35,076 nt of DNA from an uncultured virus (IMG/VR IMGVR_UViG_3300033994_001010) (lineage: Duplodnaviria; Heunggongvirae; Uroviricota; Caudoviricetes), in IMG/VR virus record IMGVR_UViG_3300033994_001010; one strand, written 5' to 3'. Both the position numbers and the translations under genes were made by a program. A model generated the notes under the pieces. That model had not been told where the DNA came from and ran no database searches. It worked only from the letters and a program-made list of their open reading frames with translations. Position 1 is the stretch's first letter, and each line of letters begins with the position of its first letter. This document shows, in pieces, positions 2,073 to 33,385 of the stretch.

Positions 2073-2073
2073 C

Positions 2074-2918: not shown

Positions 2919-2942
2919 ACACACGAAAGAGTAAGGTACAGC

Positions 2943-3635: not shown

Positions 3636-3640
3636 TCATC

Positions 3641-5692: not shown

Positions 5693-6039
5693 ATAACATT
5701 ACGGAGAAAAGAAACTTCTGTCTTATGCTTTCATTACCTTCAGGTCAAGGGTTTGCCCAGAAGTTAGGTCTTACACCACCTTCTAAAGATGTTCAAGAAT
5801 TAGAACAGATTCAAATAGATTCACAGTGGGATTTGCTACATGAATTTGGTGTTTTTGATGAGATTTCTGAGTCAGTTGAGTGGTTTACAGAGATATTATC
5901 TACTAATATGGATGGAGAAGAGATGCCACCAATGGCTGCTATTGAAGGATCTAAAGCAGTGTTGGTTTCTTTTGGGATGGCATTGATTCAAAAGTTATTA
6001 GAAAACGAAATGATTGTAATAATCTCTCCGTTAGACTAA
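5689..6039 (+). CDS. hypothetical protein
   Basis: 116-aa acidic ORF overlapping the polA stop. Confidence 0.65.
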   Translation: MNNITEKRNFCLMLSLPSGQGFAQKLGLTPPSKDVQELEQIQIDSQWDLLHEFGVFDEISESVEWFTEILSTNMDGEEMPPMAAIEGSKAVLVSFGMALIQKLLENEMIVIISPLD

Positions 6040-6049
6040 GGAAACAATA

Positions 6050-6427
6050 ATGAGCAGTTGGTGGGATAGAAAATTAAACAACGCACCCCAAGAGGAGCGT
6101 AGGTCACTTCCTACAGAGCGTGTAGTTTTGCCTGCACTACAACAGCAAGCACAAGAACGTGTTATGCAATCACCATTGCAACACCAAACACACGTGTCTC
6201 AACAGGTTGATCCTAATGGACAAACTGATATGGGTACAGCAATTAGATCATGGCGTGGTGGTGAAGCACATCGTGTAGATGGTAATCAATCTTGTCCACG
6301 ATGTGGGAGTAACAACGTATTTAGTAGATCAAATGCATCAGCAGGTGGAAAAGTTCCTGCCCCAAGATGCTTTGAATGTGGGTGGAATTCCCTGTATGAT
6401 CAAGGTGAACAAGCCAACTGGGTATAG
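6050..6427 (+). CDS. hypothetical protein with C-terminal Zn ribbon
   Basis: CPRC...CFEC; AAGGA RBS. Confidence 0.7.
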   Translation: MSSWWDRKLNNAPQEERRSLPTERVVLPALQQQAQERVMQSPLQHQTHVSQQVDPNGQTDMGTAIRSWRGGEAHRVDGNQSCPRCGSNNVFSRSNASAGGKVPAPRCFECGWNSLYDQGEQANWV

Positions 6428-6435
6428 GAGAATAA

Positions 6436-7458
6436 GTGGAAAACAATTGGGACAGTTTGTCTTCAATCATTAATTCGGTTAACAAGCAATACGGTGCAGG
6501 AACAATTGTTAAGGGTAGTGAGACCCGTGGCAAATTAGATCGAATCTCTACTGGCATATTGTCGTACGACCTCATGCTTGGTGGTGGTTGGCCTGTAAAC
6601 CAGTGGAGTGAAATCATTGGTGAAGAATCATCTGGTAAGACTGCACTTGCATTTAAGACCATTGCAACTAACCAAGCATTGAACCCAGACTTTATTTGTT
6701 TGTGGGTTGCTGCTGAAGAGTTTGTTCCTGAGTATGCAGAGTCAATTGGTGTTGATCTTGAGCGATTGTGGATTGTTGAAACCAACATTATGGAGCATGC
6801 TTACAACCTTGTAATTAATGTTATGTCTAACCGTGCTGCTGACATGATCGTTATTGACTCCCTACCTGCGCTTGTTCCTGGTGATGAATCTGAAAAGACA
6901 ATGGAAGAGTTCACCGTGGGTCTTGGTGCTCGTCTTACGTCTAAGTTCTTTCGTAAGTCTTCAGAGGCTCAAAAGCGTTCGCTTATTACAGAAGAACGTG
7001 TTTGTACTGGTTTGATGATTAACCAATGGAGACAAAAGATTGGTGTGATGTGGGGTGACCCACGCACAACCCCAGGTGGATTGGCAAAGAACTTTGCTTA
7101 CTTCTGCCGTGTTGAGGTAAAGCGTGATGAGTGGTTGAAAGACAAAGACGAAGTAGTTGGGCAAACTATCAAGGCCAGAACACTTAAGAACAAGACTTAC
7201 CGCCCTAATCAAAGCGCTGTTATTGATTTCTATTTTGCCCAAACACAAGGGTTTGAAAAAGGTGACTACGACACGCTTAAAGACATGATAAACATCGGTA
7301 TTGCTATTGATGTTATTACCCGTGCTGGTGCTTATTATTCATTTGGTGAGGGTCGTTGGCAGGGTAAGGACAAAATGCTTGATGCATTTCGTGAAGACCT
7401 TGACATGCAAAAAGTTCTAATTGCCAAAGTTGAAGCACATTACGGTGTGGCACGGTGA
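6436..7458 (+). CDS. recA: RecA-family recombinase
   Basis: GEESSGKT Walker A, IVIDSLPAL Walker B, INQWRQKIGVMWGDPRTTPGG, AGAYYSF; GTG start with AGGAG RBS. Confidence 0.93.
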   Translation: MENNWDSLSSIINSVNKQYGAGTIVKGSETRGKLDRISTGILSYDLMLGGGWPVNQWSEIIGEESSGKTALAFKTIATNQALNPDFICLWVAAEEFVPEYAESIGVDLERLWIVETNIMEHAYNLVINVMSNRAADMIVIDSLPALVPGDESEKTMEEFTVGLGARLTSKFFRKSSEAQKRSLITEERVCTGLMINQWRQKIGVMWGDPRTTPGGLAKNFAYFCRVEVKRDEWLKDKDEVVGQTIKARTLKNKTYRPNQSAVIDFYFAQTQGFEKGDYDTLKDMINIGIAIDVITRAGAYYSFGEGRWQGKDKMLDAFREDLDMQKVLIAKVEAHYGVAR

Positions 7459-7793
7459 AGGTTATAGGAAAAGATCCAGCCGATGACAGAAGAAACATTA
7501 ACAAAGCGTCTGTTAAACAAGAAAAGCGAACCGCTAATTCGTATAAGGGATCTCGTAATGCTCGCTCTGGTGCTGGTTGGCTTCGCAAAAATGATGTTCG
7601 TGCGGAAAACTTCCTCATCGAAAACAAACTCACAACAGGATTAACTCAGATAACTATCAAGGCTCTTGACCTTGTTGAGTTGCGTGAACGTGCAATTATT
7701 GAAGAAAGAGTTCCTATATTGCAGTTTGATATTGGTGGTAGACGATATGTTGTTATACCAGAAGACGATTTCTTGGAGATGATTGATGAGTGA
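7455..7793 (+). CDS. PD-(D/E)XK nuclease, Holliday-junction-resolvase-like
   Basis: KQEKRTA...SGAGW..KNDV.....LIENK pattern. Confidence 0.65.
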   Translation: MKVIGKDPADDRRNINKASVKQEKRTANSYKGSRNARSGAGWLRKNDVRAENFLIENKLTTGLTQITIKALDLVELRERAIIEERVPILQFDIGGRRYVVIPEDDFLEMIDE

Positions 7794-8724
7794 GATGCAT
7801 GATTACAAGAAGTTGTTGACTATGAATGGTCGTGTGCTTCCAACTGTGGCAATGCAGATCCTAAAAGATCGTAATGTTCGTGAAGAAACTAGAGATACAG
7901 ACCACCTTCACCCTAGTGATTTGGCAAAGAGAGATTGGTGTCCACGGTCTAATTGGTACACCATTAAGAAACACCCTAAAGACCCAGACAACTTTTCATT
8001 TCAACGTTTGAATGTGTTTGCTGAAGGTCATTACATCCACGCTAAATGGCAAGACTGGCTAAACAATGCTGGAGTTCTTGAAGGTTTGTGGCAGTGCAAG
8101 AATGATATTTGTAATCATAAATGGGAAGCAGTAAGCCCAGAGAAATGCCCATCGTGTGGAACTCCTAAACCTATTTACCGTGAAGTTCCTATTAGTAATG
8201 AGGAATATCACATCCTGGGTCATGCTGACGGTATTGTTAATGATAAGCAAGGTCGAACGTTAATCGAGATTAAGTCTGTTGGTCTTGGGTCAGTTCGTTT
8301 TGAAGCCCCAGATCTGTATTACGCATATCAAAAAGGTGAAATAACTCTTGATGGTTTGTGGAAAAAGATTAGACAACCATTCTCAAGCCACATTAGGCAG
8401 GGTTTGTTGTATATGTATTGCACTGGTATTCACCAGATGACTTTTTTGTATGAGTGGAAACCTACTCAAGAGGTTAAAGAGTTTGTAGTTGGATTTACGC
8501 CAGAATTAGTGCAACCAATGCTTGACAACTGCAAGAGACTTATGTCAGCATTGAATGGAGACATTCCACCAATGCGACCGATGTGGGCAGAAGAACCTAC
8601 ATGCAACGGCTGCAAATATTGTCCTTATAAAAACACATGTTGGAGATTAGACGATGAATCCAGAGATGGAACTGTTCAAACAAAACTTCCCGTTACCAGA
8701 AAAACCAAAAGGACTACTACCTGA
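7783..8724 (+). CDS. Cas4-like PD-(D/E)XK exonuclease with Cys clusters
   Basis: HPSD...WCPR, GHYIH, GHADG...IEIKS, Q...Y, C-terminal CNGCKYCPYKNTC. Confidence 0.8.
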   Translation: MMSEMHDYKKLLTMNGRVLPTVAMQILKDRNVREETRDTDHLHPSDLAKRDWCPRSNWYTIKKHPKDPDNFSFQRLNVFAEGHYIHAKWQDWLNNAGVLEGLWQCKNDICNHKWEAVSPEKCPSCGTPKPIYREVPISNEEYHILGHADGIVNDKQGRTLIEIKSVGLGSVRFEAPDLYYAYQKGEITLDGLWKKIRQPFSSHIRQGLLYMYCTGIHQMTFLYEWKPTQEVKEFVVGFTPELVQPMLDNCKRLMSALNGDIPPMRPMWAEEPTCNGCKYCPYKNTCWRLDDESRDGTVQTKLPVTRKTKRTTT

Positions 8725-9124
8725 ACTTCCCCGTAACATCGGAGACATTGGCGACTCCGATTTAATGGAGTTGTATACCGACTTTATGGCTTGGTTAGTA
8801 TACGCCAAGGCTCAATTAGTTCAGGCTGAGATTTCAGAAGAACGTGAACGAAACATTCTTGAGTACCTACAGTCCAGTGTCTTGATTGAGCAGTGGGGTG
8901 ATAAGGCTAAAGGTGACCTTGTTACCGTGGCAAAGGCCAAGCGAGATGTTGATTTAAGGATTCAAGACCAGATTGAAATACACACACAAAAACGTGCTTA
9001 CCGTAAATTGGTAGACACTGTGTTTGATCGTTGCGAGCGTGGTGCTCAGGTAGTTTCTCGTGAACTGTCACGCCGCATTGGTATGTCAGGTAAGGAACTT
9101 CGCCAACACCGATTTATGCCATAA
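8654..9124 (+). CDS. hypothetical helical protein (possible recombination mediator)
   Basis: 156-aa coiled-coil-like ORF between nucleases; the role is inferred from position only. Confidence 0.6.
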   Translation: MNPEMELFKQNFPLPEKPKGLLPELPRNIGDIGDSDLMELYTDFMAWLVYAKAQLVQAEISEERERNILEYLQSSVLIEQWGDKAKGDLVTVAKAKRDVDLRIQDQIEIHTQKRAYRKLVDTVFDRCERGAQVVSRELSRRIGMSGKELRQHRFMP

Positions 9125-9166
9125 ATAAGTTTGTACCCACACACAAAATTTTGGAGATAGACCCAG

Positions 9167-9538
9167 ATGGGAAATAAGCACAAAGCAAAAGGGACATCGT
9201 TTGAGACCCTTATTGTCAACTATCTTAAAGAGCAAGATTTCTGTAATGCTCGCCGTACAGCCCTCGCTGGGGAGAACGATGCTGGAGATATTCATGGCGT
9301 GGTTCAGGTTCGTGAAGTCCCCGCTAAAGAAATTGCCATTCAATGTAAGAATCAGAAGTCATTTAAACTAAGTGAATGGCTAAATGCTACAGTGGAGCAG
9401 GCTTCCAAATTGAAGCGTGGGGTTCCTTTGTTGGTAGTGAAGCGACCGGGGAAAGGTGTTGCTGCTATTGGGGAATCCTATGCAATTATGCCCTTAGAAG
9501 ACATGCTTAAGTTGCTCAAGGATGCTGGTTACGCATAA
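9167..9538 (+). CDS. Holliday junction resolvase (Hjc-like)
   Basis: KAKGTSFE...DAGDI...IQCK motif. Confidence 0.8.
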   Translation: MGNKHKAKGTSFETLIVNYLKEQDFCNARRTALAGENDAGDIHGVVQVREVPAKEIAIQCKNQKSFKLSEWLNATVEQASKLKRGVPLLVVKRPGKGVAAIGESYAIMPLEDMLKLLKDAGYA

Positions 9539-9580
9539 ATGATATTATTGGGACAACTGTTTACCTAACTAGGAGTCAAT

Positions 9581-9871
9581 ATGTCCCAAGAATTGCATAC
9601 AAAAGTTGAAGATGTTCTGAAAGTATCAGGCTCGAGCAACCCACAAAGTGTGGGTTCAATCCTCGCCCGTTCTGTTGTGGCAGGCCATTTGCCCAAGATT
9701 CGAGCCATTGGCGCAAGCGCTGTAAACCAAGGCGCTAAAGCATGCGCTATTGCACGTGGTTTTGTCGCCCCACGTGGCATGGACCTTTCGTTTGTGATTG
9801 GCTTTGATGATATTATTGGTGAGAATGGAGAAAATATCTCCGCTATTTCCTTCAAACCCGTAGTGAGGTAA
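9581..9871 (+). CDS. spoVS: SpoVS-family protein (Alba-like fold)
   Basis: LKVSGSSNPQSVG...AIGASAVNQGAKACAIARGFVAPRGMDL closely matches the SpoVS signature; AGGAG RBS. Confidence 0.9.
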   Translation: MSQELHTKVEDVLKVSGSSNPQSVGSILARSVVAGHLPKIRAIGASAVNQGAKACAIARGFVAPRGMDLSFVIGFDDIIGENGENISAISFKPVVR

Positions 9872-9874
9872 ACA

Positions 9875-10459
9875 ATGGGCTGGTTTAATCGTGACAAGGT
9901 GAACAGTATCACCCCGTATGCAAACAGTGGTCAACATAAGCCACGAGTTGGTGCAAAGCCAGACACCCACACGGTTCGTGACGATAGTGGCAACACCACA
10001 CAGGCAATGACCCAGCGCCGAGCAGACCGTGATGCTACATCTGCATCAGGACCACACTCTGGGTATGTCAACCCAAGTGGCGGCGATGCAATGGGTCCAA
10101 AAAAACCTAATATTAAAATTGGTGCTGAGTACACCACGTACCATGAGCCTTCATCCCCAGAAGGTAAAGCAATTCTTAAGGATAAGAAGAAGTCTGCAAA
10201 GGCTTTGAAAAAAGTAAACAGCCCTAAAGTAATGGCTGAGTCAAAAGCCGCAGGACAATCGTTTGATGTTGCTAAAGAACAAGAAACAAAGCGCATGAAG
10301 ACTAACGAATCAGTTGCTCGTAGTCAAACAGGCCCATTTGCCATTCAACCAGAAAGAAGTGAGAAGGCATACCTTGAAGGTGGTGCTAAAGGTGAACAAG
10401 CCTACCGTCAAAAGGAAAATAAAATGCGGGCTGACATGGATAAGGATATGCCTTACTAA
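9875..10459 (+). CDS. hypothetical low-complexity protein
   Basis: 194 aa, hydrophilic, GAGG RBS. Confidence 0.7.
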   Translation: MGWFNRDKVNSITPYANSGQHKPRVGAKPDTHTVRDDSGNTTQAMTQRRADRDATSASGPHSGYVNPSGGDAMGPKKPNIKIGAEYTTYHEPSSPEGKAILKDKKKSAKALKKVNSPKVMAESKAAGQSFDVAKEQETKRMKTNESVARSQTGPFAIQPERSEKAYLEGGAKGEQAYRQKENKMRADMDKDMPY

Positions 10460-10461
10460 TT

Positions 10462-10704
10462 ATGCGTAATCGACCAAACTCAGGACATGATGTCTATTCA
10501 ACACCAGTAAAGCGTGTTGCTCACCGCCCCATTGACCAAGCACACGTTCCTTCTGTGCCTGCAAAAATGAGTGACTATGTTCCAAATTCTCAGTATTTGG
10601 CAGATAGTTATTACGCAGATACCGATCCCGAATCGTTGGGTGGGTTGTATCGTAGTGCAGCAGCACGAGAACAGGCTATGCGCCAACCACGACCTACGAG
10701 GTAA
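10462..10704 (+). CDS. hypothetical protein, degenerate member of N-terminal motif family
   Basis: SGHDVYSTPVKRV has the same spacing as GGEDTRNHPRRRV. Confidence 0.65.
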   Translation: MRNRPNSGHDVYSTPVKRVAHRPIDQAHVPSVPAKMSDYVPNSQYLADSYYADTDPESLGGLYRSAAAREQAMRQPRPTR

Positions 10705-10706
10705 TC

Positions 10707-10982
10707 ATGTCTAAAGGTCAAAGAACAGAGCATAACCCAAATCGCAAAGTAAGTAGGGATGTATTTCAACCAAACCTACCTGCCCCACAAACCGCAACAG
10801 GTGGTAGTGGGAAGAAACCACCTAAAAAACCACGTACTACGTTTGGTAAATCAAATCCAGACCCATATGGTGGCTGGCATTCACAAACTAACCCAGATTA
10901 TTTCCTACAAGGGACCCCGCCCCAGTACAGAGAAAATCGTATTTCTGATCTTAATTGGGGAAACTACCCAAAGGATAAATAA
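10707..10982 (+). CDS. small protein with conserved N-terminal motif
   Basis: Starts MSKGQRTEHNPNRKVSR; GAGG RBS. Confidence 0.75.
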   Translation: MSKGQRTEHNPNRKVSRDVFQPNLPAPQTATGGSGKKPPKKPRTTFGKSNPDPYGGWHSQTNPDYFLQGTPPQYRENRISDLNWGNYPKDK

Positions 10983-11089
10983 TGGCTGCTAAAAAGAAAA
11001 AGACTGCTAAAAAGAAAGTTGCCCCTAAAAAGGATGCCCCTCGCCCAATCACTGCCGTTGCAGGTGCTGCTGGTGGGTTTATTACTAGC
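10982..11089 (+). CDS. 35-aa Lys-rich peptide
   Basis: TAATG-coupled ORF MAAKKKKTAKKKVAPKKDAPRPITAVAGAAGGFYY, not in the ORF track. Confidence 0.6.
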
Positions 11090-11103
11090 ACTGGAATTCT
11101 GTA

Positions 11104-11604
11104 ATGGCTGGGTCTTCACAGACCTCTTTTAACCATTGGCAAGGTCCATCTGAAGCCTCTGGTGGCGCTACACAGAACCAGTTTGGTCCTGCTCCTGTTT
11201 TTCGCAACAACAAGGATTATCAACTTGCTGGATACCGAACTATTTCAGACACTGAGTATCCAGACGGATACCTTGGAACAATGTCGTCTAACCGCCGACA
11301 AGACAAGATTCTTGGAACGCTTAGTCGGAGCAACGCTCGTCAATACTCACGTGGTGTTCACAAGGGTGAACGTATTAACCAAGGTGACTACATTTGGCCC
11401 GATGAATTCAACTTATGGACTGGTATTGCCCATGAATCCAAAGGGCGTAAATTTGCCCCACCAGGAGCAGTACCTGTACAATTGACAAATGACGGAAAAG
11501 TTGGTCCTAAAGGTATCCCTCGCACAATGGATCAACCTAACCAAGACTATATTTCTGCTGAACGCCGTGCCAAACTCCAATCGCTTCGCCCTTCTTGGAG
11601 ATAA
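11104..11604 (+). CDS. hypothetical phage protein
   Basis: 166 aa, contains YPDGYLGT and RGVHKGERI segments. Confidence 0.7.
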   Translation: MAGSSQTSFNHWQGPSEASGGATQNQFGPAPVFRNNKDYQLAGYRTISDTEYPDGYLGTMSSNRRQDKILGTLSRSNARQYSRGVHKGERINQGDYIWPDEFNLWTGIAHESKGRKFAPPGAVPVQLTNDGKVGPKGIPRTMDQPNQDYISAERRAKLQSLRPSWR

Positions 11605-11607
11605 GTA

Positions 11608-14136
11608 ATGGTTAAGAAGAAGAAGGACAACCCACTAGCAGGTCTTACACGTTTTAACGTTGATCCTAATCCTGTAACTTCTGCACAACTGTATTCCGAA
11701 AGACAATTAATTGACGATATGGATAGAGAATACCTTCGTGGTGGAAAAACCGAAGAAGACTGGGACCCGTTTTATAAACAATCTTTTGAACGGGCTAAAG
11801 AATCATTAGAAGGTATCAGATCAGGTAAACGGTCTGTGCTTGACAATGAGCAATCACCATATTCAAAAACTGGTCTTAACGATATTCTAGAAAAAGCATC
11901 GGTAAACCCAAGACCAGGTGGCGATAGCCCAGAAAGATGGCTTCCTCAAAACTTTAATTTTTCCTACGATTACGGCGGAGTAGTAGACGATTACAACAAT
12001 GAAGCCAAAAAAGTTGGTAAAGGTATTTATGATTCTCATAGTTGGGATTCTGGTAAATACCAAAATAAGGGTGGGAAATCAGGAAAGAAACCACAAACTC
12101 GAAAAGATTTGGAAGCAGCCGAACCTTGGCGTAAAACTGAAGATAATCCAAATATTCAAGAATCCCCTGAATACAATGAGTGGGTCAAACGCAAGTATGA
12201 TCAAGAAACAAAAGGAACAGCCCTACCAAGCGTTTCAGATATCTTTACCCCTGGATATAAGCCAAGAGAAGGGTTTAAATTAAGCCAATCTGTGGCTGAC
12301 ATGGGTTCAGAAAGTGGGTCAAAAAAACCATATTCAACAGCCATCCCACATGTTTCTCAAGAACAAATGGCAAAAGAAGCGTTGGCTTACATCAAGACTG
12401 TTTCTCCAGATGATACAAAAGGTATTGCAGAGACAGAAGCAACATTATCTAGAATTCAAAATCAGAAAACTAGCAATAGTGGAAAATCTAAAGATTCTGA
12501 TACAAAATCTAAAGAGGCTTCACAAAAGCATTACGAAGAATTTTGGGAAAAGCAGAAAACTGAAGACCCTGAAGCATATGCTGCCCATCAAAAAAGTTTA
12601 GGTAAAACTGGTAAAGTAGAAGAACCTGCATTACCCCAAGCATCGGAGAAGCCAGTGGCTAAGAAAAAGAAAAACGAACCAGAGTACATTCCTTCAAAGA
12701 GTGAGAAAGATTTTTCCGCAGGCCGAATGCCTGGTATTACTGGAACAGCAGAAGAAGCAGAAGCAGCACTTGCAAGGTCACGTAAAGCAAGCACTGCCAA
12801 GGTGACTGGTAAGGCTAAAGAAAAACTTCAAGGAGAGATTAAATCCCACCCTATGTATCGTGGGACTCGACAATTGTCTGATGAAGAAGTAGCCGCTAAT
12901 GAATCAACTGGCTCTATTCGTGCTTCTGAATCTGTAGCAGCGACTGCAAAAACACCTAAATCAAAGGGTAAAGGTAAGAAAAAAGACATGGTTCCACATC
13001 CAGACATTCCGGGTGCGATGACTGATGCTAATGCAGAGCCAATAGATGAAAAGCCGTATATAGATGATCCAGCAGAAACTCTTGCCGCTAATGCTAAGAC
13101 ACCTAAAATGGAAACAGTTCCACGTAGCGACTCCTCTGGAAACACTGTTGATGTTTCTCGTTTTGCTGGGCAACCGAAAAAGGAAGATGTTACTCCTGCT
13201 TCTGAGTCTGTAGCAGCAACTGCTGCACCTGACAAAAACAAGCCAGGTTATTACCGAGAAAAGTACGGTGAACTCCTTGATTCAATGACACCAGAAGAAA
13301 AAGCAATGAGCGAAGCAGGAATGGCTGCTGTTAGGGATAAAGAAGAAGCAGCACTGGATGCTGATGAGGCAGAACGTGCTGGTAAGTCAACCCCAAGTTC
13401 AATGCCTGCTCCAACGGGTACTGGTGTAGCAAGCCCTACTCCTACATGGGGTGCTCCAACGGGTACTGGTGTATCAAGCCCAACTGCAACCCCAGCAAGC
13501 CCAACTGCAACCCCAGCAAGCCCAACTGCAACCCCAGCAAGCCCAACTGCAACCCCAGCAAGCCCAACTGCAACCCCACCTGTTGGTAGTGGTGGTCCTC
13601 GATCAGCGCCACCAGCAACACCAAGGGTAAAAGGACCGGGACTTGGTTCACGTCTTGGTGGATTCTTTGGTGGACATGGTGGAAGAGGTGGCGGTAGAGC
13701 GCCATCAACTTCTGGTGGTACTTCAACACCATCAACGTCATCAGCCAATACAACGAATATTACTTACGGAGCACCTACTTTCGGTGATCAAACTAACTTG
13801 GGTCGTAATGACTTTGGTGGTGGTAGTGGTGGTTCAGGTGGTAGCGGTTCAATCAACATGAGTGCAAACTCCAACCAAGCAAACCAAGTTCAAGGACAAA
13901 ATGTCCGAATTGGTGGTTCGTATGGTGGAACTGTTGGTGGCCCAGTAGTCGCAAGCACTTCTGGTCGTGCAACATCGAATAACCCTCGTGCAACTGTGTT
14001 GTCAACTGGTGGTCCTGCTTCGCAGACACAAGGTCACCCACGAGCACAAAACGCAAAACGTGGTGGTCGCCCAACTTCAAACAATCAGACACCAACTGCA
14101 CCTAAAAGCAAAAATCCTCGCCAGCAGAAACCCTAA
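11608..14136 (+). CDS. 842-aa low-complexity, likely disordered protein
   Basis: K/E/S-rich first part, P/T/A repeats, G/S/N/Q-rich tail; no Cys. Confidence 0.8.
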   Translation: MVKKKKDNPLAGLTRFNVDPNPVTSAQLYSERQLIDDMDREYLRGGKTEEDWDPFYKQSFERAKESLEGIRSGKRSVLDNEQSPYSKTGLNDILEKASVNPRPGGDSPERWLPQNFNFSYDYGGVVDDYNNEAKKVGKGIYDSHSWDSGKYQNKGGKSGKKPQTRKDLEAAEPWRKTEDNPNIQESPEYNEWVKRKYDQETKGTALPSVSDIFTPGYKPREGFKLSQSVADMGSESGSKKPYSTAIPHVSQEQMAKEALAYIKTVSPDDTKGIAETEATLSRIQNQKTSNSGKSKDSDTKSKEASQKHYEEFWEKQKTEDPEAYAAHQKSLGKTGKVEEPALPQASEKPVAKKKKNEPEYIPSKSEKDFSAGRMPGITGTAEEAEAALARSRKASTAKVTGKAKEKLQGEIKSHPMYRGTRQLSDEEVAANESTGSIRASESVAATAKTPKSKGKGKKKDMVPHPDIPGAMTDANAEPIDEKPYIDDPAETLAANAKTPKMETVPRSDSSGNTVDVSRFAGQPKKEDVTPASESVAATAAPDKNKPGYYREKYGELLDSMTPEEKAMSEAGMAAVRDKEEAALDADEAERAGKSTPSSMPAPTGTGVASPTPTWGAPTGTGVSSPTATPASPTATPASPTATPASPTATPASPTATPPVGSGGPRSAPPATPRVKGPGLGSRLGGFFGGHGGRGGGRAPSTSGGTSTPSTSSANTTNITYGAPTFGDQTNLGRNDFGGGSGGSGGSGSINMSANSNQANQVQGQNVRIGGSYGGTVGGPVVASTSGRATSNNPRATVLSTGGPASQTQGHPRAQNAKRGGRPTSNNQTPTAPKSKNPRQQKP
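13474..13578 (+). repeat. 5 x 21-bp in-frame tandem repeat (GCAAGCCCAACTGCAACCCCA, encoding ASPTATP)
   Basis: Read directly; preceded by two copies of GCTCCAACGGGTACTGGTGTA at 13408 and 13453. Confidence 0.95.
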
Positions 14137-14423
14137 TGGCTGGGGGCGAAGATACTCGTAACCATCCTCGCCGTAGGGTAGGTCGTTATTATCATTATAA
14201 AGATGAACCAGCCGAGAGCAAGCGTGATATCTCTGAACCAACTACTCGTGGAGAAAGTTGGTCGATTGGTTATCGCCACGCTGCTGGTGACGCTGTTTAT
14301 AAAATGCCCCATGTAAATCTTGGAATGATTGCTTCATATGACAGGGAACATGAGGCAGCACGTCATGCTGATATGCTTAATACGCAACTAGATCGAATGT
14401 ATGGTGGAGAAAACAATGCCTAG
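14136..14423 (+). CDS. small protein with conserved N-terminal motif
   Basis: Starts MAGGEDTRNHPRRRVGR. Confidence 0.8.
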   Translation: MAGGEDTRNHPRRRVGRYYHYKDEPAESKRDISEPTTRGESWSIGYRHAAGDAVYKMPHVNLGMIASYDREHEAARHADMLNTQLDRMYGGENNA

Positions 14424-14586
14424 AGGTGAAGATACCCGACATCATCAAGGTAGAAAAGTTGGTCGTACTGAATTATCAGGTACTGCTGAATCTATGTTTG
14501 GGGCTATGGATACGCTCAAGGCTCAACTAACTGCACAAGGTCGATATGTACCTGAAGATGAATCTGAGGAGAACGACAATGCCTAA
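14416..14586 (+). CDS. small protein with conserved N-terminal motif
   Basis: Start moved to ATG 14416 (GGAG RBS); MPRGEDTRHHQGRKVGR. Confidence 0.8.
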   Translation: MPRGEDTRHHQGRKVGRTELSGTAESMFGAMDTLKAQLTAQGRYVPEDESEENDNA

Positions 14587-14887
14587 AGGTGAAGACACCC
14601 GACATCATGGTGCTCGCATTGTAAGTCTTGATGCACATCGTGCTAAGAAGGCAAAGCCTTCAATGATGTCTCGCATTAAAGATGCAATGATTGGTGGACC
14701 AGGAAACCCTGACTTGGATGACCCAAACACACCTGAGTACACAGGTCAAGAAGCACGACTTTCTGACATTGCCCCTCGCAACCTCATTGATAAGGCTAAA
14801 GGCGGTACTGGAAGAGTAGAAAAGAAACCGCTATTCTCATGGGATGAAAACAACAACCCATCATTTAGAGGAAAGCCAATCAAGTAA
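14579..14887 (+). CDS. small protein with conserved N-terminal motif
   Basis: Start moved to ATG 14579 (GAGGAG RBS); MPKGEDTRHHGARIVS. Confidence 0.8.
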   Translation: MPKGEDTRHHGARIVSLDAHRAKKAKPSMMSRIKDAMIGGPGNPDLDDPNTPEYTGQEARLSDIAPRNLIDKAKGGTGRVEKKPLFSWDENNNPSFRGKPIK

Positions 14888-15081
14888 TGCCTAGAGGACA
14901 AGACACTCGTCATCATATGGGTCGCCGTGTTGGTCGTGATGTTATGGACATGCATAATGAGATGCGAGAGAAGCAGATGGAACAAGAAGATCGTGATGCT
15001 TACGAAGCACAAGAAGATGCTCGTGGTAATGACGGTCTAACCTCCGATTCTGGGTTTAGCGAAAGAGAAATGAGAGACTAA
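14887..15081 (+). CDS. small protein with conserved N-terminal motif
   Basis: TAATG-coupled; MPRGQDTRHHMGRRVGR. Confidence 0.8.
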   Translation: MPRGQDTRHHMGRRVGRDVMDMHNEMREKQMEQEDRDAYEAQEDARGNDGLTSDSGFSEREMRD

Positions 15082-15353
15082 TGGCAAACGGAGAACGTAC
15101 AGAACACCATTCTAACCGCAGAGTTGATCGTGCCGGATGCCGTGCTAGATCCTTAGAGGACTCAGGGTCTTCAGGTTTGTATGACTATAGAGACAAGTTT
15201 AATTCTGCACTTTCTAAAAATATGGCTGGTGATTCCAGTGATTATGAAGCACACCTTAAATCAGAAGGTTTCCTAACTCCTAGTGGAAAAGTTACTGGAG
15301 CAGGTCGCACAAATCCTATGGCTAGAACTAAGTTGAATTGGGACACTGAATAA
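15081..15353 (+). CDS. small protein with conserved N-terminal motif
   Basis: TAATG-coupled; MANGERTEHHSNRRVDR. Confidence 0.8.
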   Translation: MANGERTEHHSNRRVDRAGCRARSLEDSGSSGLYDYRDKFNSALSKNMAGDSSDYEAHLKSEGFLTPSGKVTGAGRTNPMARTKLNWDTE

Positions 15354-15673
15354 TGCCTGTAGATAACCAACGTACAACTAGACCTTGGCAATCTCGTGAG
15401 GAGATGCTTACTGATGTTGCCTTGCAATCTGCTATTTCTGACCCAGAAACTATTCGTGCCACTAAACCAATTGTTCCTCAACAGGTAAACCCTGAAAGGC
15501 GTGGTTTTATCAAGCAAGAACTTGGGATTATGGACATTTTGTCTGTGGATCGTTATGCCCCAACTTATCGTTCATGGGTTTCTGGTGCTCCTGTAATGTT
15601 CCAAAGAGCACAAATGAATGACGATGAATTCAGTGGTTCTGGTCGTTATTCAATGCAAAGTCTTTGGGTATAA
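15353..15673 (+). CDS. hypothetical protein
   Basis: TAATG-coupled 106-aa ORF. Confidence 0.7.
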   Translation: MPVDNQRTTRPWQSREEMLTDVALQSAISDPETIRATKPIVPQQVNPERRGFIKQELGIMDILSVDRYAPTYRSWVSGAPVMFQRAQMNDDEFSGSGRYSMQSLWV

Positions 15674-15679
15674 TAGAGT

Positions 15680-16573
15680 ATGGCTACTCCTAACCAATAC
15701 GGTGCTCAACCAACTGGTGCGCCCCCAGCAACTGTGGGTTCTTTTAAAACTGGTCCATCTGTAAGCCCAAATCCTATGCAGGGTGTAAACGCAGGTACGA
15801 GTCGTAACTGGAGTCCAACAAGTGAACCACCGTCTGGTGGCATGATGGGCAACATTATGCGTGACTGGATGTTTAGCCCAGCAAATCCTGGAAACATGTA
15901 TTATTCACGCCGTGGTCAACGTGGTGGTGGTGGTGGTCGAGGTAGACGCAGAGGTGGTGCTGGGGGTGGCGGTAGCACTCAAGATGAGTCCACCGTTAAC
16001 AACACTGGGAATTGGAACATTAATTTCGAAGGGCCAAAGTTTGGTGATCAAACTAATTTAGGTCGTGGTGATTTTGGTGGAATGATGCCCGGTGGACAGG
16101 CGCAACAAGCCACTCAGCAAGGAGCAGCACCTACACAAGGTCAGCCTCCTGCACGTAATCGCCCACAACTAACCCCAGAACAAAAACAGCGTAATGCTGA
16201 GACTGCTCGTGCTCGCCGTGCTCTTGCTTCAGACATCAAGAAGCAAGGAACACCAGAACAACAAAAACGCATTGCAGAACAAGGTGTTGCTGGTGGTAAG
16301 GTTCGCCAACCACGACAACCTAAAGCAACAACAGCGCCTGCAACATCTCAGCAAACGACTGGTTCAACTTTTTCAAATGTTAGTGCAAACTCAATCCAAG
16401 CCAACCAAGTATCTGCTGGGTCAATGAATGTTGGTGCTGGTGCTACTGGTGGTCCACAAGCCGCTGGAGCGCCATTTATAGATCTCGGAAGCGTAAGCGG
16501 TGGGTCTGCATCATCACCAAGCAGTGGTGCAAAAGCACAGGGTGGTACTATTGGTGGAGTAAAGATCAATTAA
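15680..16573 (+). CDS. G/Q/A-rich low-complexity protein sharing two motifs with 11608..14136
   Basis: Contains FGDQTNLGRGDFGG and SANSIQANQV, plus an RGG-rich tract. Confidence 0.8.
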   Translation: MATPNQYGAQPTGAPPATVGSFKTGPSVSPNPMQGVNAGTSRNWSPTSEPPSGGMMGNIMRDWMFSPANPGNMYYSRRGQRGGGGGRGRRRGGAGGGGSTQDESTVNNTGNWNINFEGPKFGDQTNLGRGDFGGMMPGGQAQQATQQGAAPTQGQPPARNRPQLTPEQKQRNAETARARRALASDIKKQGTPEQQKRIAEQGVAGGKVRQPRQPKATTAPATSQQTTGSTFSNVSANSIQANQVSAGSMNVGAGATGGPQAAGAPFIDLGSVSGGSASSPSSGAKAQGGTIGGVKIN

Positions 16574-16599
16574 TTTCCTTTAATGAATAGGATATAGAA

Positions 16600-16803
16600 A
16601 TGGCACAAAATACATCACGCTCACAGAACCAAGACCTTCGTAAAGGGATCATGGATGGCGTATTTAAGAGTTTGACCCCAAGCCGTGGCGGTGAGGTTGA
16701 AGAAGAGTTTGTCGCCAAGCGAAGCATGGTTTTGCAATCGCAATATGGCATTACCCCACCAAGCCCGATGGCTGAAATAAATGAACCAGTAATTAACCTG
16801 TAA
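16600..16803 (+). CDS. hypothetical protein
   Basis: 67 aa, AGGA RBS. Confidence 0.7.
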   Translation: MAQNTSRSQNQDLRKGIMDGVFKSLTPSRGGEVEEEFVAKRSMVLQSQYGITPPSPMAEINEPVINL

Positions 16804-16813
16804 AGGTTGTAAT

Positions 16814-16981
16814 GTGGGCGATATTGTCGATATGGCGGAGTTCCGCAAAAAGAAAGCCCAGCGTCAGTTAAGTCAACGTCAGTTTCACCCAGCCTTCAGC
16901 AGTATGTTTGACGAGGCAGGGTCAGATATTGATGCTAAACTGCGGGAATTGGGCTTAGACCCTAACGATTACAAGGAGTAA
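16814..16981 (+). CDS. 55-aa hypothetical protein
   Basis: GTG-start ORF MGDIVDMAEFRKKKAQRQ...DPNDYKE fills the gap; AAAGG RBS. Confidence 0.6.
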   Translation: MGDIVDMAEFRKKKAQRQLSQRQFHPAFSSMFDEAGSDIDAKLRELGLDPNDYKE

Positions 16982-16983
16982 TT

Positions 16984-17148
16984 ATGGCTTCTAAAAAAGA
17001 CGTTTGGGATAAACCAAATCCTAAAAAGAAATCATCAAAGTTAAGTCCTGAGCAAAAGTCAGAAGCAAAGGCTCGTGCCAAGGCTGCTGGTCGCCCATAC
17101 CCAAACCTTGTGGACAATATGGCTGTGTCTAAAAAAGGTAAGAAGTAA
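16984..17148 (+). CDS. 54-aa basic phage protein
   Basis: MASKKDVWDKPNP...AKARAKAAGRPYPNLVDN; AAGGAG RBS; coupled to the next gene. Confidence 0.7.
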   Translation: MASKKDVWDKPNPKKKSSKLSPEQKSEAKARAKAAGRPYPNLVDNMAVSKKGKK

Positions 17149-17429
17149 TGGCAACTAAGAAATCAGAAGCGTGGCAACGCAAAGAGGGTAAAAACGAAAA
17201 AGGTGGACTTAACGAAAAAGGTCGTAAGTCTTACGAAAGAGCAAACCCTGGTTCAGATCTTAAACCCCCAGTTAAAAAAGAACAGGCTGCTAAGTCTAAG
17301 AAGTCTGCGGCTCGCCGTGATTCTTTTTGCGCCCGTATGGAAGGGATGAAGAAGAAAAACACTTCATCTAAAACCGCTAATGACCCAGACAGCAGGATTA
17401 ACAAGTCACTAAGGGCTTGGGACTGCTAG
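17148..17429 (+). CDS. basic phage protein, DUF6321-like
   Basis: GGLNEKGRKSY...RRDSFCARM...DPDSRINKSLRAWDC; family recalled from memory. Confidence 0.7.
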   Translation: MATKKSEAWQRKEGKNEKGGLNEKGRKSYERANPGSDLKPPVKKEQAAKSKKSAARRDSFCARMEGMKKKNTSSKTANDPDSRINKSLRAWDC

Positions 17430-17926: not shown

Positions 17927-18411
17927 TGCTTGTTATTACATTTGACGTTTTGGCGTACGCAAATACAGAAAAGTCAATGTCCCCCGGAGCACGGCAACCT
18001 ATTCCTGACGGTCAAAAACTTTACGAGGCACTTTACGCAAGGTATAACGGCAGAGTAATTCTTCTTGGAAATACTGACTGCTCTGCGGAATTGTTGTCCG
18101 AATGGGCAAAACGTGAAGGGTATAAACACTCCAGTGTAGAAATCACCAAAGGTAATAAACCAGAGGATTTCCGTGACAGGGTTCGTGACCTAAATGCCGT
18201 GTACGGAAAAATTGATTGGTTTGTGGACACTAACCCAGAATCTGTAACTCTTGTTATGCAAGATGCCATACCTTGTTTACTTATGTGTTTACCTAACTTT
18301 GTTCGCCCAGAATGGCGTGAAGATAAACCCAAGGAACGAAAAGTGTGGACAGATCTAACTCGTGAACTTGAGGTACAGTCTTTGTACCGATCTGTAAAGG
18401 ACACTCAGTGA
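17926..18411 (+). CDS. HAD-fold-like protein, degenerate
   Basis: LVITFDVL...QPIPDG...RVILL...WFVDTNP layout resembles HAD/PNK phosphatase domains but has no DxD. Confidence 0.5.
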   Translation: MLVITFDVLAYANTEKSMSPGARQPIPDGQKLYEALYARYNGRVILLGNTDCSAELLSEWAKREGYKHSSVEITKGNKPEDFRDRVRDLNAVYGKIDWFVDTNPESVTLVMQDAIPCLLMCLPNFVRPEWREDKPKERKVWTDLTRELEVQSLYRSVKDTQ

Positions 18412-19844
18412 AAATCTATTTTGCCAACGCTGAGAAGTCATCACATAGGTCATTGCTACACGCTGCTGGGGTTACTCGCTATGCGGTAAACCTAACCCAT
18501 TTGGCTATCCCAAAGAAAAAAGACATTGATTTATCTGTAATGTGTCATGGCGGTGAAATCATTTTGTACACATCAGAAAGTGATGAGGATGTCACCAGAT
18601 ACGATGATTTTATCCGTCAGCACTATGAAAGTCTGACTGCCATTATTGGTCGCCCAGATTACGATGGTACTTGGCTAAATGATCGTTATGTACCCTTGTG
18701 GAATGATGGTGACGATTTAGAGCGTTTGGCGTACCTTTGCCAACGTCATGGAAGGGCCGCAGTCAGTGATAAGGCTGTAAACGGTAAAAACATTTCCCGT
18801 ATTCGTAACCTCATTCAGAGGTGGGATGCCAAGTTAATAGGATTGTCATCTAAACCAGATGTCATTGAAGCCCTACCTTGGGAATCCGTAGTTGTGGGGT
18901 CGTGGACATCGGCTGTGCGTTACGGGGAAACTCAGGTATGGGATGGTCACGGTTTACGCCGATACCCCGCCCAGCAAAAAGATTCTGCCCGAAAAAAGCA
19001 CCGAGCAGACATCATTCGGTTAGGAATTGACTATGAACAGATAGTTCAAGACGATAATGCTGAGGTTGCAAAGTTAGCAATCAAGTCTTGGCAAGCATGG
19101 GAACAGGGTTCTTTTGGGGTCTATGACCCCTCAGAAGACGATGACGAACAAGAAATAGGTCTATCCCAAAATGGGGATAATAATAATGATTCAAGCAATT
19201 TGCCTATTTCAACAAAAGTGGTTTCAGGGGGTGACAATATTATGATCAGGGTGTCTGAGAAGCGGCACGAGGATGACAAAGTATTGTTACCAGTTATTGG
19301 TATAGAGAACATCAAACCACAAATGGCGGAAAACCTTACAGAACTTGAAGATGAGGGCAATTCTGATGCATTTTCTACCCCTGTTTTGAAGTACCAAAGT
19401 AACCTTTTACGCCAATGTAATAATTGTTATCTTAGCAGTCGTTGTCCTGCATTCAAGGAGAATTCTGATTGTGGATTCAAGTTACCTGTAGAGATCAAAA
19501 CTAAAGACCAGTTGCAGGCTGCAATGAGGGCATTGTTGGAGATGCAAATGAGCCGAGTGTTGTTTGCTCGCTTTGCCGAAGAACTAGAAGGTCAAGGTCT
19601 TGACCCAGCATTGTCGGATGAAGTTGAACGTCTGTTTGGTCTGGTAGAAAAGTTCAAAGACATCTCAGATACTCGTGATGTCATGCGTCTTGAGGTTGAA
19701 GCACGTGGCGGTGCAGGAGTTCTTAGTCGTATCTTTGGCGCTCAAGTGGGCGAAGCCACCAGGCAACTTACAGGTGGTGGTTTGAATGCTAACCAGGCTG
19801 ACAGTATGTACGCAGACATCCTCGATCTTTCGGATGAGGCTTGA
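18408..19844 (+). CDS. TGT-like (degenerate) N-terminal domain + acidic linker + Cys4 cluster/helical C-terminal domain
   Basis: MKIYFA start and PWESVVVGSWTSAVRYG motif; CNNCYLSSRCPAFKENSDC. Confidence 0.5.
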   Translation: MKIYFANAEKSSHRSLLHAAGVTRYAVNLTHLAIPKKKDIDLSVMCHGGEIILYTSESDEDVTRYDDFIRQHYESLTAIIGRPDYDGTWLNDRYVPLWNDGDDLERLAYLCQRHGRAAVSDKAVNGKNISRIRNLIQRWDAKLIGLSSKPDVIEALPWESVVVGSWTSAVRYGETQVWDGHGLRRYPAQQKDSARKKHRADIIRLGIDYEQIVQDDNAEVAKLAIKSWQAWEQGSFGVYDPSEDDDEQEIGLSQNGDNNNDSSNLPISTKVVSGGDNIMIRVSEKRHEDDKVLLPVIGIENIKPQMAENLTELEDEGNSDAFSTPVLKYQSNLLRQCNNCYLSSRCPAFKENSDCGFKLPVEIKTKDQLQAAMRALLEMQMSRVLFARFAEELEGQGLDPALSDEVERLFGLVEKFKDISDTRDVMRLEVEARGGAGVLSRIFGAQVGEATRQLTGGGLNANQADSMYADILDLSDEA

Positions 19845-20477: not shown

Positions 20478-20909
20478 GTGGCTGACTTTCATCTGAGAAA
20501 TTACTCAGAGGACATCATGGCAGAAGGGGTAAATAAAGAGTTTATGCGAACGCTTGCTCATATCCTTCTTCCCCACGTTTACATTGTTGGTACATGTGTT
20601 CATTCCGATTCCGAGGAAAATGTGAACATGGCTATTGATACTGCTGACGAACTTTACACAAGTGGTATTTGTTTGCCAATCATTCCTGCTCTTACCTATT
20701 ACTGGGAAAAACGTCACCCAAGAGGTTACGAGTTCTATAACGAATACTGCTTTCAAATAATGAAACGATGTGACGCTGTTTTTGTTGATGAAATACCCGA
20801 AGGTTCTGATTGGCATATTGATGAACTTGCTGAAGCACAGCGATTAGATCTTCCAATCTTTTGGTCAACAGGGGACTTACAAAATTGGGTAGAAGATGGG
20901 GCAGAATGA
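20478..20909 (+). CDS. nucleoside deoxyribosyltransferase-like fold protein (DUF4406/DUF1937-like)
   Basis: VYIVG...IMKRCDAVFV...ELAEAQRLDLPIF; start uncertain. Confidence 0.55.
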   Translation: MADFHLRNYSEDIMAEGVNKEFMRTLAHILLPHVYIVGTCVHSDSEENVNMAIDTADELYTSGICLPIIPALTYYWEKRHPRGYEFYNEYCFQIMKRCDAVFVDEIPEGSDWHIDELAEAQRLDLPIFWSTGDLQNWVEDGAE

Positions 20910-30112: not shown

Positions 30113-30135
30113 TCTCTGGTCAATCCGGAATGCCA

Positions 30136-30169
30136 AAGACCCTCAGCAGAAATGCTGGGGGTTTTTGTT
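30136..30169 (+). terminator. intrinsic terminator
   Basis: GACCCTCAGCA-GAAA-TGCTGGGGGTT followed by TTT. Confidence 0.75.
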
Positions 30170-31384: not shown

Positions 31385-31399
31385 TTCCCCAACTGAGCC

Positions 31400-33382: not shown

Positions 33383-33385
33383 ATC

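What the first reader, a model, noticed from the sequence alone, without database searches (positions are those of the whole stretch)
10462..15353. Shared N-terminal 'address tag' on a tandem array of otherwise unrelated small proteins
Six ORFs begin with the same ~16-aa motif and then diverge completely: 10707 MSKGQRTEHNPNRKVSR, 14136 MAGGEDTRNHPRRRVGR, 14416 MPRGEDTRHHQGRKVGR, 14579 MPKGEDTRHHGARIVS, 14887 MPRGQDTRHHMGRRVGR, 15081 MANGERTEHHSNRRVDR. ORF 10462 (SGHDVYSTPVKRV) has the same spacing. The DNA differs at synonymous sites (GAT/GAC, ACT/ACC, CGT/CGA), so selection acts on the peptide. Two starts are mis-called in the ORF track, which hides the pattern. A constant leader with variable cargo parallels the capsid-targeting sequence of T4 internal proteins and RiPP leader peptides. 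Inference: an undescribed sorting or processing signal that loads interchangeable effectors into the virion, with the repeated 5' ends also allowing cassette shuffling.
Basis: partly seen in the sequence, partly recalled or inferred. Interest (0 to 1): 0.85.

Follow-up and report, generated by a model that had tools for sequence, protein, structure and literature searches.

The report
Shared start tag on phage mini-proteins
Six small genes of an uncultured actinobacterial phage begin with the same 17-residue peptide and then differ completely; relatives put this undescribed tag on dozens of other small proteins, so it is probably an address label whose destination is unknown.

Summary
Six + strand ORFs (10707, 14136, 14416, 14579, 14887, 15081) start with M-[APS]-x-G-[EQ]-[DR]-T-[RE]-[HN]-H-x-x-R-x-V. 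A tag profile scores them 38-43 bits, and the next best hit in the window scores 4.6. ORF 10462 is not a member.

The six cargos fall into six unrelated clusters. The window belongs to a 92-98 kb myovirus with whiB genes. Relatives carry 3-5 tagged genes each.

Among 1.84 billion representative proteins, 87 clusters carry the tag. All are 50-159 aa, and the tag sits at the N-terminus in 86 of 87. No Pfam family, PHROG family or paper was found for it. Cargos are under purifying selection.

A charge swap (D6/R8 in 122 proteins, R6/E8 in 34, never mixed) points to a defined conformation.

What the tag does is not shown. My best guess (0.35) is a virion-loading tag analogous to the T4 capsid targeting sequence, but unrelated in sequence and with no protease found. 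Docking on an intracellular hub or a degradation signal remain live alternatives.

This scan has noted analogous tags, with other motifs, in other phages.

The parts
10707..10982 (+). Tagged gene 1 (91 aa). Its cargo family has a G/K/P-rich middle (PPKKP). It lies upstream of the conserved 166-aa gene.
   Evidence: 39.3 bits. Cargo cluster c2 recurs in relatives at the same position.
14136..14423 (+). Tagged gene 2 (95 aa).
   Evidence: 41.9 bits. Orthologue clusters P0009 and P0100. AF2: tag is coil at pLDDT about 76, with a C-terminal helix at residues 62-90.
14416..14586 (+). Tagged gene 3 (56 aa). The start is at 14416, not the longest-ORF start at 14401. It overlaps the previous gene by 8 nt.
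   Evidence: 43.3 bits. Homologous cargo in L030 and P0019. An identical 174-nt contig occurs in an RNA-library run.
14579..14887 (+). Tagged gene 4 (102 aa). The start is at 14579, not 14546.
   Evidence: 39.6 bits. Orthologues occur in at least 4 relatives, with cargo pN/pS of 0.03-0.19.
14887..15081 (+). Tagged gene 5 (64 aa, acidic cargo ending DSGFSEREMRD). TAATG stop/start overlap.
   Evidence: 38.1 bits. Cargo pN/pS of 0.05-0.08.
15081..15353 (+). Tagged gene 6 (90 aa, R6/E8 tag variant). It is a mosaic: the first ~15 cargo residues resemble cluster c11 and the rest resembles c10. It is absent, cut out precisely, in some metagenome contigs.
   Evidence: 40.4 bits.. Joint 15078>15351 in runs X1 and X2.
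11104..11604 (+). Conserved 166-aa protein of unknown function that flanks the array on its 5' side. It is also present in cultured Streptomyces phages that lack the tag.
   Evidence: 414 database clusters at E<=1e-5. Found in 11 of 14 viral loci. tblastn hits in 6 Streptomyces phage records. AF2 pLDDT 56, so no fold call.
15353..15673 (+). Conserved 106-aa protein of unknown function that flanks the array on its 3' side.
   Evidence: Weak positional homologue gp178 of phage LuckySocke (E 0.013).
9581..9871 (+). SpoVS-like protein. It marks the left border of the hypervariable island.
   Evidence: PF04232, E 1.4e-19. The island between it and 17148 is the least conserved stretch against relative G001.
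11608..14136 (+). 842-aa low-complexity protein (K-rich, PTATPAS repeats, RGG/Gly-rich tail) between the 166-aa gene and the array.
   Evidence: Tandem 21-nt repeats and a C-terminal block shared with 15680-16573. No family hit.
15680..16573 (+). 297-aa RGG/Gly-rich protein. Its C-terminal block is a paralogue of that of the 842-aa protein.
   Evidence: No family hit.
10462..10704 (+). It is not a member.
   Evidence: No match to the tag profile.

Best explanation
The 17-20 N-terminal residues (consensus M-A/P-R/K-G-E-D-T-R-H/N-H-P-N-R-K/R-V-G/S-R, then often D/E-x-hydrophobic) are a portable recognition tag. One receptor reads the tag and so handles a changing set of small, mostly disordered or zinc-ribbon proteins.

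I commit to the assembling phage head as the most likely receptor. On that reading the tagged proteins would be packaged and enter the next host with the DNA, as the T-even internal proteins do, probably as anti-defence or takeover factors.

Shown here:
- The tag exists, is strictly N-terminal and is under peptide-level selection.
- The cargos are real, selected genes of many unrelated kinds.
- The arrays are combinatorial.
- The tag has an internal charge-swap covariation, which implies a fixed conformation.

Inferred, not shown:
- That a receptor exists.
- That the receptor is in the prohead.
- That the cargo is injected.
- Whether the tag is cut off.

The generic statement (a shared address or docking tag) I hold at about 0.75. 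The full virion-loading chain I hold at 0.35, which is the confidence given here.
For: The tag is real and specific: 6 of 6 at 38-43 bits against 4.6 for the next hit.

It is strictly N-terminal and confined to small proteins. 87 clusters among 1.84 billion representatives are all 50-159 aa, and the tag is at the N-terminus in 86 of 87. Position 1 of the profile falls on M, V or L in 192 of 192 locus hits. A strict residue-1 position is typical of sorting signals, leaders and degrons (established knowledge).

Cargo diversity: 198 unique tagged proteins fall into 75 cargo clusters, 46 of them singletons.

Cargos are functional: pN/pS is 0.00-0.19 in 15 orthologue pairs.

Cargos are small and hydrophilic: median 81.5 aa overall, 74% disorder-promoting residues. 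Net charge is <= -3 in 63, near neutral in 54 and >= +3 in 31 of 148. Only 1 of 148 has a TM-like window. This is the kind of protein that could travel with DNA.

G4 and R13 are invariant in 198 of 198. D6/R8 occurs in 122 and R6/E8 in 34, with no D/E or R/R pairs, and both variants occur within one genome.

The phage is a myovirus with a separate coiled-coil scaffold protein. In relative L073, two tagged genes lie immediately upstream of portal, scaffold and capsid genes.

Against: In the window and in most relatives the tagged genes sit in a gapless, co-directional run with the replication and recombination genes (528-16573). No promoter-like or terminator-like enrichment was found there. 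They are about 25 kb from the head genes in G001.

No head, tail or other protein of the 91.8-kb relative G001 carries the tag: 4 hits, all in the island, next best 6.2 bits.

No prohead protease was recognised among 57 ORFs of G001, so processing has no support.

The tag is polar, with Gly and Pro, and AF2 models it as coil. It has no recognisable likeness to the T4 tag.

Cultured Streptomyces phages with the same capsid family (E 4e-153), the same 166-aa gene and a SpoVS-like gene have no tagged genes. The tag is therefore not tied to that capsid type.

No proteomic data exist.
Confidence: 0.35

Rival explanations
1. Intracellular docking motif. The tag is a short linear motif that docks all these small proteins on one hub inside the infected cell. 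The hub could be a host machine (such as RNA polymerase, ribosome or nucleoid) or a phage protein such as the conserved 166-aa or 106-aa neighbours. The variable tails would then do different things at that hub.
For: The tagged genes are co-directional and gapless with the early/middle-type replication genes.

Arrays sit between the conserved 166-aa and 106-aa genes in most loci. 11 of 14 viral loci have the 166-aa gene. 15 of 19 tag-bearing metagenome loci have at least one of the two anchors, including a 66% GC relative (L071).

AF2 gives an extended, moderately confident coil, as for binding motifs. Cargos are largely disordered.
Against: Linear docking motifs are usually not fixed at residue 1. 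Here 86 of 87 are.

The two neighbour genes exist without any tagged gene in Streptomyces phages. Tagged genes also occur away from them (L073, L061, L050).

No partner has been identified.
Confidence: 0.25
2. Degradation tag (timer). The tag is an N-terminal degron that hands a set of early proteins to one protease, host or phage-encoded, so that they are removed at a set time.
For: The tag is strictly N-terminal, and residue 2 is always small (A 124, P 62, S 12 of 198). That would allow Met removal (inference from established knowledge).

Cargos are disordered and small, which suits them as protease substrates.

The phage group encodes an HslV/proteasome-like peptidase next to the portal gene. 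It is present in 3 of 3 tag-bearing relatives that are at least 70% complete (G002, G005, G007).
Against: The peptidase was not found in G006, which has tagged genes and the relevant head region but is only 53% complete.

17-20 conserved residues with an internal covariation is more than known N-degrons need (recalled knowledge).

No unfoldase partner was seen.
Confidence: 0.1
3. The tag is itself the working part. It would be a basic N-terminal arm that binds nucleic acid or a metal, and the tails would be fast-evolving modulators.
For: The tag's median net charge is +2. R13 is invariant, H10 occurs in 172 of 198, and K/R is common at positions 14 and 17.

The island is full of other basic or RGG-rich low-complexity proteins and a SpoVS-like protein.
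Against: No repeated hairpin or DNA site that could be a common target was found in the island. There is no Rfam match in the window.

Acidic E5 and D6 are conserved. The tails are under strong purifying selection, so they are not mere spacers.
Confidence: 0.1
4. RiPP-like or bacteriocin-like leader. The tag is a leader read by a modifying or exporting enzyme, and the tails are core peptides.
For: The layout (constant leader, variable remainder, tandem array) resembles precursor arrays of ribosomal natural products (recalled knowledge).
Against: No modifying enzyme or transporter lies in or beside the island.

Cargos of 33-146 residues are conserved along their whole length. 123 of 148 cargos have no Cys. 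The tag has no hydrophobic or double-glycine feature.
Confidence: 0.03
5. Ordinary diverged paralogues whose N-terminus merely evolves more slowly.
For: Some cargo clusters are linked by weak or partial similarities and chimeras.
Against: 75 cargo clusters have no detectable similarity to each other at BLASTP 1e-4. They include zinc ribbons, acidic tails and G/K/P-rich segments. The six window cargos fall in six clusters. The conservation boundary is sharp at residues 17-20.
Confidence: 0.02

Closest known systems
Capsid targeting sequence (CTS) of the T-even phage internal proteins (IPI, IPII, IPIII, Alt) and the polymorphic IP locus
   Same: A short, constant N-terminal peptide on a diverse, fast-changing set of small charged proteins in a hypervariable locus of a myovirus. 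Gene sets differ between close relatives (PMC3012670 passages).
   Different: No sequence likeness was detected: no T4 internal-protein family came up in PHROGs. No gp21-type prohead protease was recognised. The tag is polar, modelled as coil, and carries an internal charge swap. All cargos are 163 aa or shorter. Packaging is untested.
Encapsulin cargo-loading peptides
   Same: A short terminal peptide that would dock varied cargo on the inner face of an HK97-fold shell (analogy from recalled knowledge).
   Different: Those peptides are mostly C-terminal with a different consensus (recalled). No binding to the capsid protein was shown here.
Leader peptides of RiPP or bacteriocin precursor arrays
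   Same: Constant N-terminal part, variable remainder, tandem genes.
   Different: No maturation or export genes nearby. Cargos are long and conserved throughout.
Other tag-on-variable-cargo sets noted earlier by this scan in other phages (e1-5876085, e1-6012190, e1-5813463, e1-6098713)
   Same: The same architecture: one short terminal peptide on many unrelated small phage proteins. These are AI notes seen and were not checked here.
   Different: Their motifs and phage groups differ.

Membership tests
T4-type CTS / internal proteins | Sequence membership in a known internal-protein or CTS family | tested here: not met
   No PHROG or Pfam family matched any of the 6 window proteins. Of 63 family members scanned, none matched beyond weak zinc-finger hits.
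T4-type CTS / internal proteins | Removal of the tag by a prohead protease at a shared cut motif that also occurs in other head proteins | tested here: not met
   No prohead protease family was found among 57 ORFs (>=90 aa) of relative G001. The protein between portal and capsid is a coiled-coil scaffold. No other protein of G001 carries the tag. A divergent protease cannot be excluded.
T4-type CTS / internal proteins | Constant N-terminal tag on diverse small proteins in a polymorphic locus | tested here: met
T4-type CTS / internal proteins | Physical presence of the proteins inside the head and injection with DNA | not testable with these tools
   No cultured member and no proteome. No tagged gene was found in 50,697 phage records with one tblastn query.
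RiPP / bacteriocin precursor | Cognate modifying enzyme, protease or transporter encoded nearby | tested here: not met
   None found among 62 window ORFs scanned against PHROGs, 35 of which were also scanned against Pfam.
RiPP / bacteriocin precursor | Short core rich in modifiable residues, hypervariable under weak constraint | tested here: not met
   Cargos are 33-146 aa, 123 of 148 have no Cys, and pN/pS is 0.00-0.19.
Sec/Tat signal peptide | Hydrophobic core after a basic N-region | tested here: not met
   The tag consensus is polar throughout. Only 1 of 148 cargos has a TM-like window.
Single paralogous protein family | Homology over the whole length | tested here: not met
   15-27% identity with alignment only at the tag. 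75 cargo clusters.

The most novel reading that the evidence does not exclude
The tag may be the client-recruitment signal of a compartment that the phage builds itself, rather than a T4-style cut-off head tag. The island that holds the array also encodes two large RGG/Gly/Pro-Thr-rich low-complexity proteins (842 and 297 aa), lysine-rich peptides and a SpoVS-like protein. These could form a condensate or nucleoprotein body, in the cell or later in the head. The tag would then admit an exchangeable set of small disordered effectors into it.
Probability: 0.08. Interest if true: 0.9.

Novelty: new variant of a known kind. Interest (0 to 1): 0.62.

Why it matters
If the tag is an address label, it marks out the accessory effector set of an abundant but uncultured group of actinobacterial phages. 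At least 75 unrelated small proteins become recognisable by their first 17 residues alone, and none of them has a known function.

It would also give a second, sequence-unrelated example of the T-even 'constant tag, variable internal protein' design, this time with no obvious protease. That bears on how phages load and exchange injected or takeover proteins.

The invariant G4 and R13 and the D6/R8 to R6/E8 swap give ready-made mutants for testing. Cultured Streptomyces phages with the same capsid family and island backbone, but no tags, offer a possible test bed.

Tried and rejected
Complex prediction. Capsid protein + scaffold protein (relative G001 and relatives, shallow alignments of 7 and 6 rows) + 30-residue tag alignment gave the verdict 'no answer' at score 0.00, and the controls were not run. 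This is no evidence either way.

Structure of the conserved 166-aa neighbour. AF2 gave pLDDT 56, too poor for a fold search. The ESM Atlas gave no usable hit for it or for the 106-aa neighbour.

Bacterial genomes. The tag DNA pattern matched 8 places in 185,579 species genomes. All look like chance: alternative-frame Arg-rich reads in high-GC actinobacteria or 20-35 aa ORFs.

Cultured phages. One tblastn query (P0036) found only an E = 4 hit.

RNA-level explanations. No repeated hairpins or conserved upstream DNA, no promoter or terminator enrichment, and no Rfam family.

Ribosomal-protein mimicry. A likeness of the tag to the N-termini of bL27, bL34 and bL35 is recalled from memory only. No ribosomal family appeared in the Pfam scan at E <= 1, so I dropped it.

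Scaffold N-terminus. 'MAKGNDE' in G001 resembled the start of the tag, but it is not conserved in relatives and does not score with the profile.

HslV-like peptidase as a co-occurring partner. It is present in G002, G005 and G007, and absent from G006 (incomplete) and from LuckySocke. Inconclusive.

Sequencing runs. All four are kept as contigs only. They can show that contigs of two RNA-library runs contain tagged genes: X4 is identical over 14407-14580, and X3 covers 14578-15095. They cannot show transcription, level or timing. Parts without cover mean nothing.

Full report
**What is there**

The window is one-stranded phage DNA. It encodes primase, an SNF2 helicase, a family A DNA polymerase, RecA/UvsX, resolvases, a Cas4-like exonuclease, a SpoVS-like protein, two WhiB-like regulators and many unknowns. 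There are no tRNA genes and no Rfam matches. WhiB-like genes are regarded as a marker of phages of Actinobacteriota (PMC10202952, passages read).

The strict motif occurs six times in six frames, always three residues after an ATG. A profile built from 148 tags found elsewhere scores these six at 38.1-43.3 bits, and the next best hit in any frame scores 4.6 bits. ORF 10462, offered as a possible seventh, does not match.

Upstream DNA is not conserved, and the tag codons differ at synonymous positions. Mean pS is 0.62 and mean pN is 0.33 over the 15 paralogue pairs. After residue 17-20 the proteins cannot be aligned, and they fall into six different BLASTP clusters. The genes are packed with 8-nt overlaps or TAATG junctions.

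**Relatives**

Degenerate DNA patterns of the tag found the following:
- 11, 21 and 8 stretches in viral contigs.
- 25 stretches in metagenome contigs. 19 of these hold real tags at 15 bits or more, and 6 are chance matches.
- 8 stretches in bacterial genomes, all of which look like chance.

Five relatives of 85-98 kb, one with terminal repeats, each have 3-5 matches. The closest, G001 (91.8 kb), is collinear with the window at 72-88% nucleotide identity. The exception is the stretch from about 10.5 to 17.4 kb, where only islands align. The array therefore lies in the most variable part of the genome.

G001 is a myovirus. It has terminase, portal, a 259-aa coiled-coil scaffold-like protein, a capsid protein without an N-terminal extension, sheath, tube and baseplate. 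It holds exactly four tags, all in the island. No structural protein carries one.

**How wide the family is**

A 30-column profile of 22 tags was scored against 1.84 billion representative proteins. It found 87 clusters at E <= 0.001. All are 50-159 aa. The tag is at the very N-terminus in 86 of 87, and the exception has a 13-residue upstream extension.

A word-indexed search found 49 proteins at E <= 0.01. All come from metagenome sources, none has a Pfam domain, and none has a name other than 'hypothetical protein'.

Pooling loci and database hits gives 198 unique tagged proteins in 75 cargo clusters, 46 of them singletons. No long protein carries the tag.

Neither Pfam (63 members scanned) nor PHROGs (63 members) has a family for it. 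A full-text search for four versions of the motif string found no paper. Supplementary files were not searched.

**Anatomy of the tag**

Of 198 tags, G4 and R13 are invariant. T7 occurs in 181, H10 in 172 and V15 in 191. Residue 2 is A, P or S in all 198. Residues 11-12 are mostly P-N. Residue 17 is mostly R or K, and residue 20 is mostly hydrophobic.

Positions 6 and 8 covary as a charge swap. D/R occurs in 122 proteins (45 cargo clusters) and R/E in 34 (17 clusters). There is no D/E or R/R pair. Both forms occur in the same genome, and 8 cargo clusters hold both. Because both forms coexist beside what is presumably one receptor, I read this as a contact within the tag, meaning a defined bound conformation. 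That is inference. These sequences are related, so the counts are not independent events.

AF2 models residues 1-20 of the 95-aa protein as coil at pLDDT about 76.

**The cargos are real genes**

In 15 orthologue pairs from three cargo families, cargo pN/pS is 0.00-0.19.

Cargos are short (median whole-protein length 81.5 aa) and 74% of their residues are disorder-promoting. They are acidic in 63, near neutral in 54 and basic in 31 of 148. 18 of 148 have paired CxxC-type motifs, and 1 of 148 has a membrane-like window.

Contigs assembled from two RNA-library runs contain tagged genes, one of them identical over 14407-14580. The tool warns that this does not prove transcription.

**Context**

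In the window the order is:
1. SpoVS-like protein
2. 194-aa ORF
3. 80-aa ORF
4. Tagged gene 10707
5. 40-aa lysine-rich ORF
6. Conserved 166-aa gene
7. 842-aa low-complexity gene
8. Five tagged genes
9. Conserved 106-aa gene
10. 297-aa RGG-rich gene

The 166-aa and 106-aa genes bracket the arrays in most relatives. The 166-aa gene is present in 11 of 14 viral loci. At least one of the two anchors is present in 15 of 19 tag-bearing metagenome loci, and two of the four without an anchor are contigs under 1.5 kb.

The 166-aa protein is abundant, with 414 clusters at E <= 1e-5. It also occurs in six cultured Streptomyces phage records. In phage LuckySocke, the SpoVS-like gene, the 166-aa homologue and a weak 106-aa homologue lie together with no tagged gene between them. 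That phage has the same capsid family (E 4e-153) and no tag match. The tool notes that an empty answer without a positive control shows little.

Tagged genes also occur elsewhere:
- Directly upstream of portal, scaffold and capsid genes in a 63% GC contig (L073).
- After a queuine tRNA-ribosyltransferase-like gene (L061).
- Among unknown genes in G006, which has the same capsid family but no 166-aa gene in its 51.6 kb.

**Shuffling**

Arrays differ in content and partly in order between relatives. 27 of 34 loci have two or more tagged genes, though some loci may be the same phage from two collections.

Chimeras exist. A 163-aa protein joins two cargo types. The window's 15081 gene shares its first cargo residues with one cluster and the rest with another. 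A C-terminal DSGFSE motif is shared by two cargo types, in 11 of 198 proteins.

Contigs from other populations lack the 15081 gene precisely (joint 15078>15351). Another contig lacks the untagged ORF 9875-10459 precisely (joint 9877>10463). Exchange therefore happens gene by gene. Nothing shows that the tag-coding DNA is the crossover site.

**Interpretation**

The features fit a signal read by one receptor better than a shared domain or a drifting paralogue family. Those features are a strictly residue-1 position, a sharp conservation boundary, many unrelated but selected cargos, confinement to small proteins, and an internally covarying conformation.

There is no hydrophobic core, so Sec or Tat export is excluded. 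No maturation enzymes are nearby, so a RiPP-type leader is unlikely. The remaining destinations are the assembling head, an intracellular hub, or a protease.

I rank virion loading first at 0.35. The reasons are the close architectural parallel with the T-even internal proteins (PMC3012670), the kind of cargo, and the L073 arrangement next to the head genes. The evidence against it is real: the usual position is among replication genes, no tagged structural protein exists, no protease was found, and the tag is absent from cultured relatives with the same capsid. An intracellular docking motif (0.25) and a degron (0.10) are live alternatives.

The tag is not a member of the T4 CTS family by any test available here. 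It may still work like one.

**Novelty and score**

The motif family appears to be undescribed and is widespread in uncultured actinobacterial phages. The design has a known precedent, and this scan has noted analogous tags with other motifs in other phages (AI notes not checked here). I therefore call it a new variant of a known kind, with interest 0.62.

Noticed in passing
window 11608-14136 and 15680-16573: Two large low-complexity proteins (842 and 297 aa) with RGG/Gly-rich stretches. The 842-aa gene has a perfect 21-nt tandem repeat at 13475-13579, which encodes PTATPAS units. The two genes share a conserved C-terminal block (13755-13820 against 16015-16080 at 77% nt; 13861-13889 against 16382-16410 at 90%). 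No family match.
   Followed up: partly
window 9875-10459 and 15081-15353: Contigs from other public runs join 9877>10463 and 15078>15351. Each of these two genes is therefore precisely absent in some populations, which points to gene-by-gene gain or loss at gene boundaries.
   Followed up: partly
window 30000-35076: GC rises from about 0.43 to 0.50-0.54. A second SNF2-type helicase (31495-33003) sits here beside a phrog_1221 protein (30326-31384). The stretch is also present in relative G001, so it is part of the phage and not an assembly chimera.
   Followed up: partly
window 17148-17429: A small DUF6321 protein. It is the only part of the island region with nucleotide matches in cultured phages (214 cyanophage records). 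There the domain ends a 427-aa protein annotated as 'structural protein' near the terminase gene. Copies of this small gene sit inside the island or array in some relatives (L015, L029, L052).
   Followed up: partly
window 20861-21322 and 22426-22848: Two WhiB-like regulator genes in one phage. A queuine tRNA-ribosyltransferase-like gene lies at 18408-19844.
   Followed up: no
L036:39-671 (relative G001): An HslV/proteasome-like peptidase and a metallophosphoesterase lie directly upstream of the portal gene. The peptidase was found in G002, G005 and G007, but not in G006 or in Streptomyces phage LuckySocke.
   Followed up: partly
window 10982-11104: A 40-aa ORF with a lysine-rich N-half and an apolar C-half (phrog_7481, E 8.8e-5). 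It is conserved at this position in several relatives.
   Followed up: no
window 16573-17148: A 575-bp stretch without a sizeable + strand ORF, at the end of the otherwise gapless run of genes from 528 to 16573. The simple scan found no terminator or promoter in it, and there is no Rfam match.
   Followed up: no
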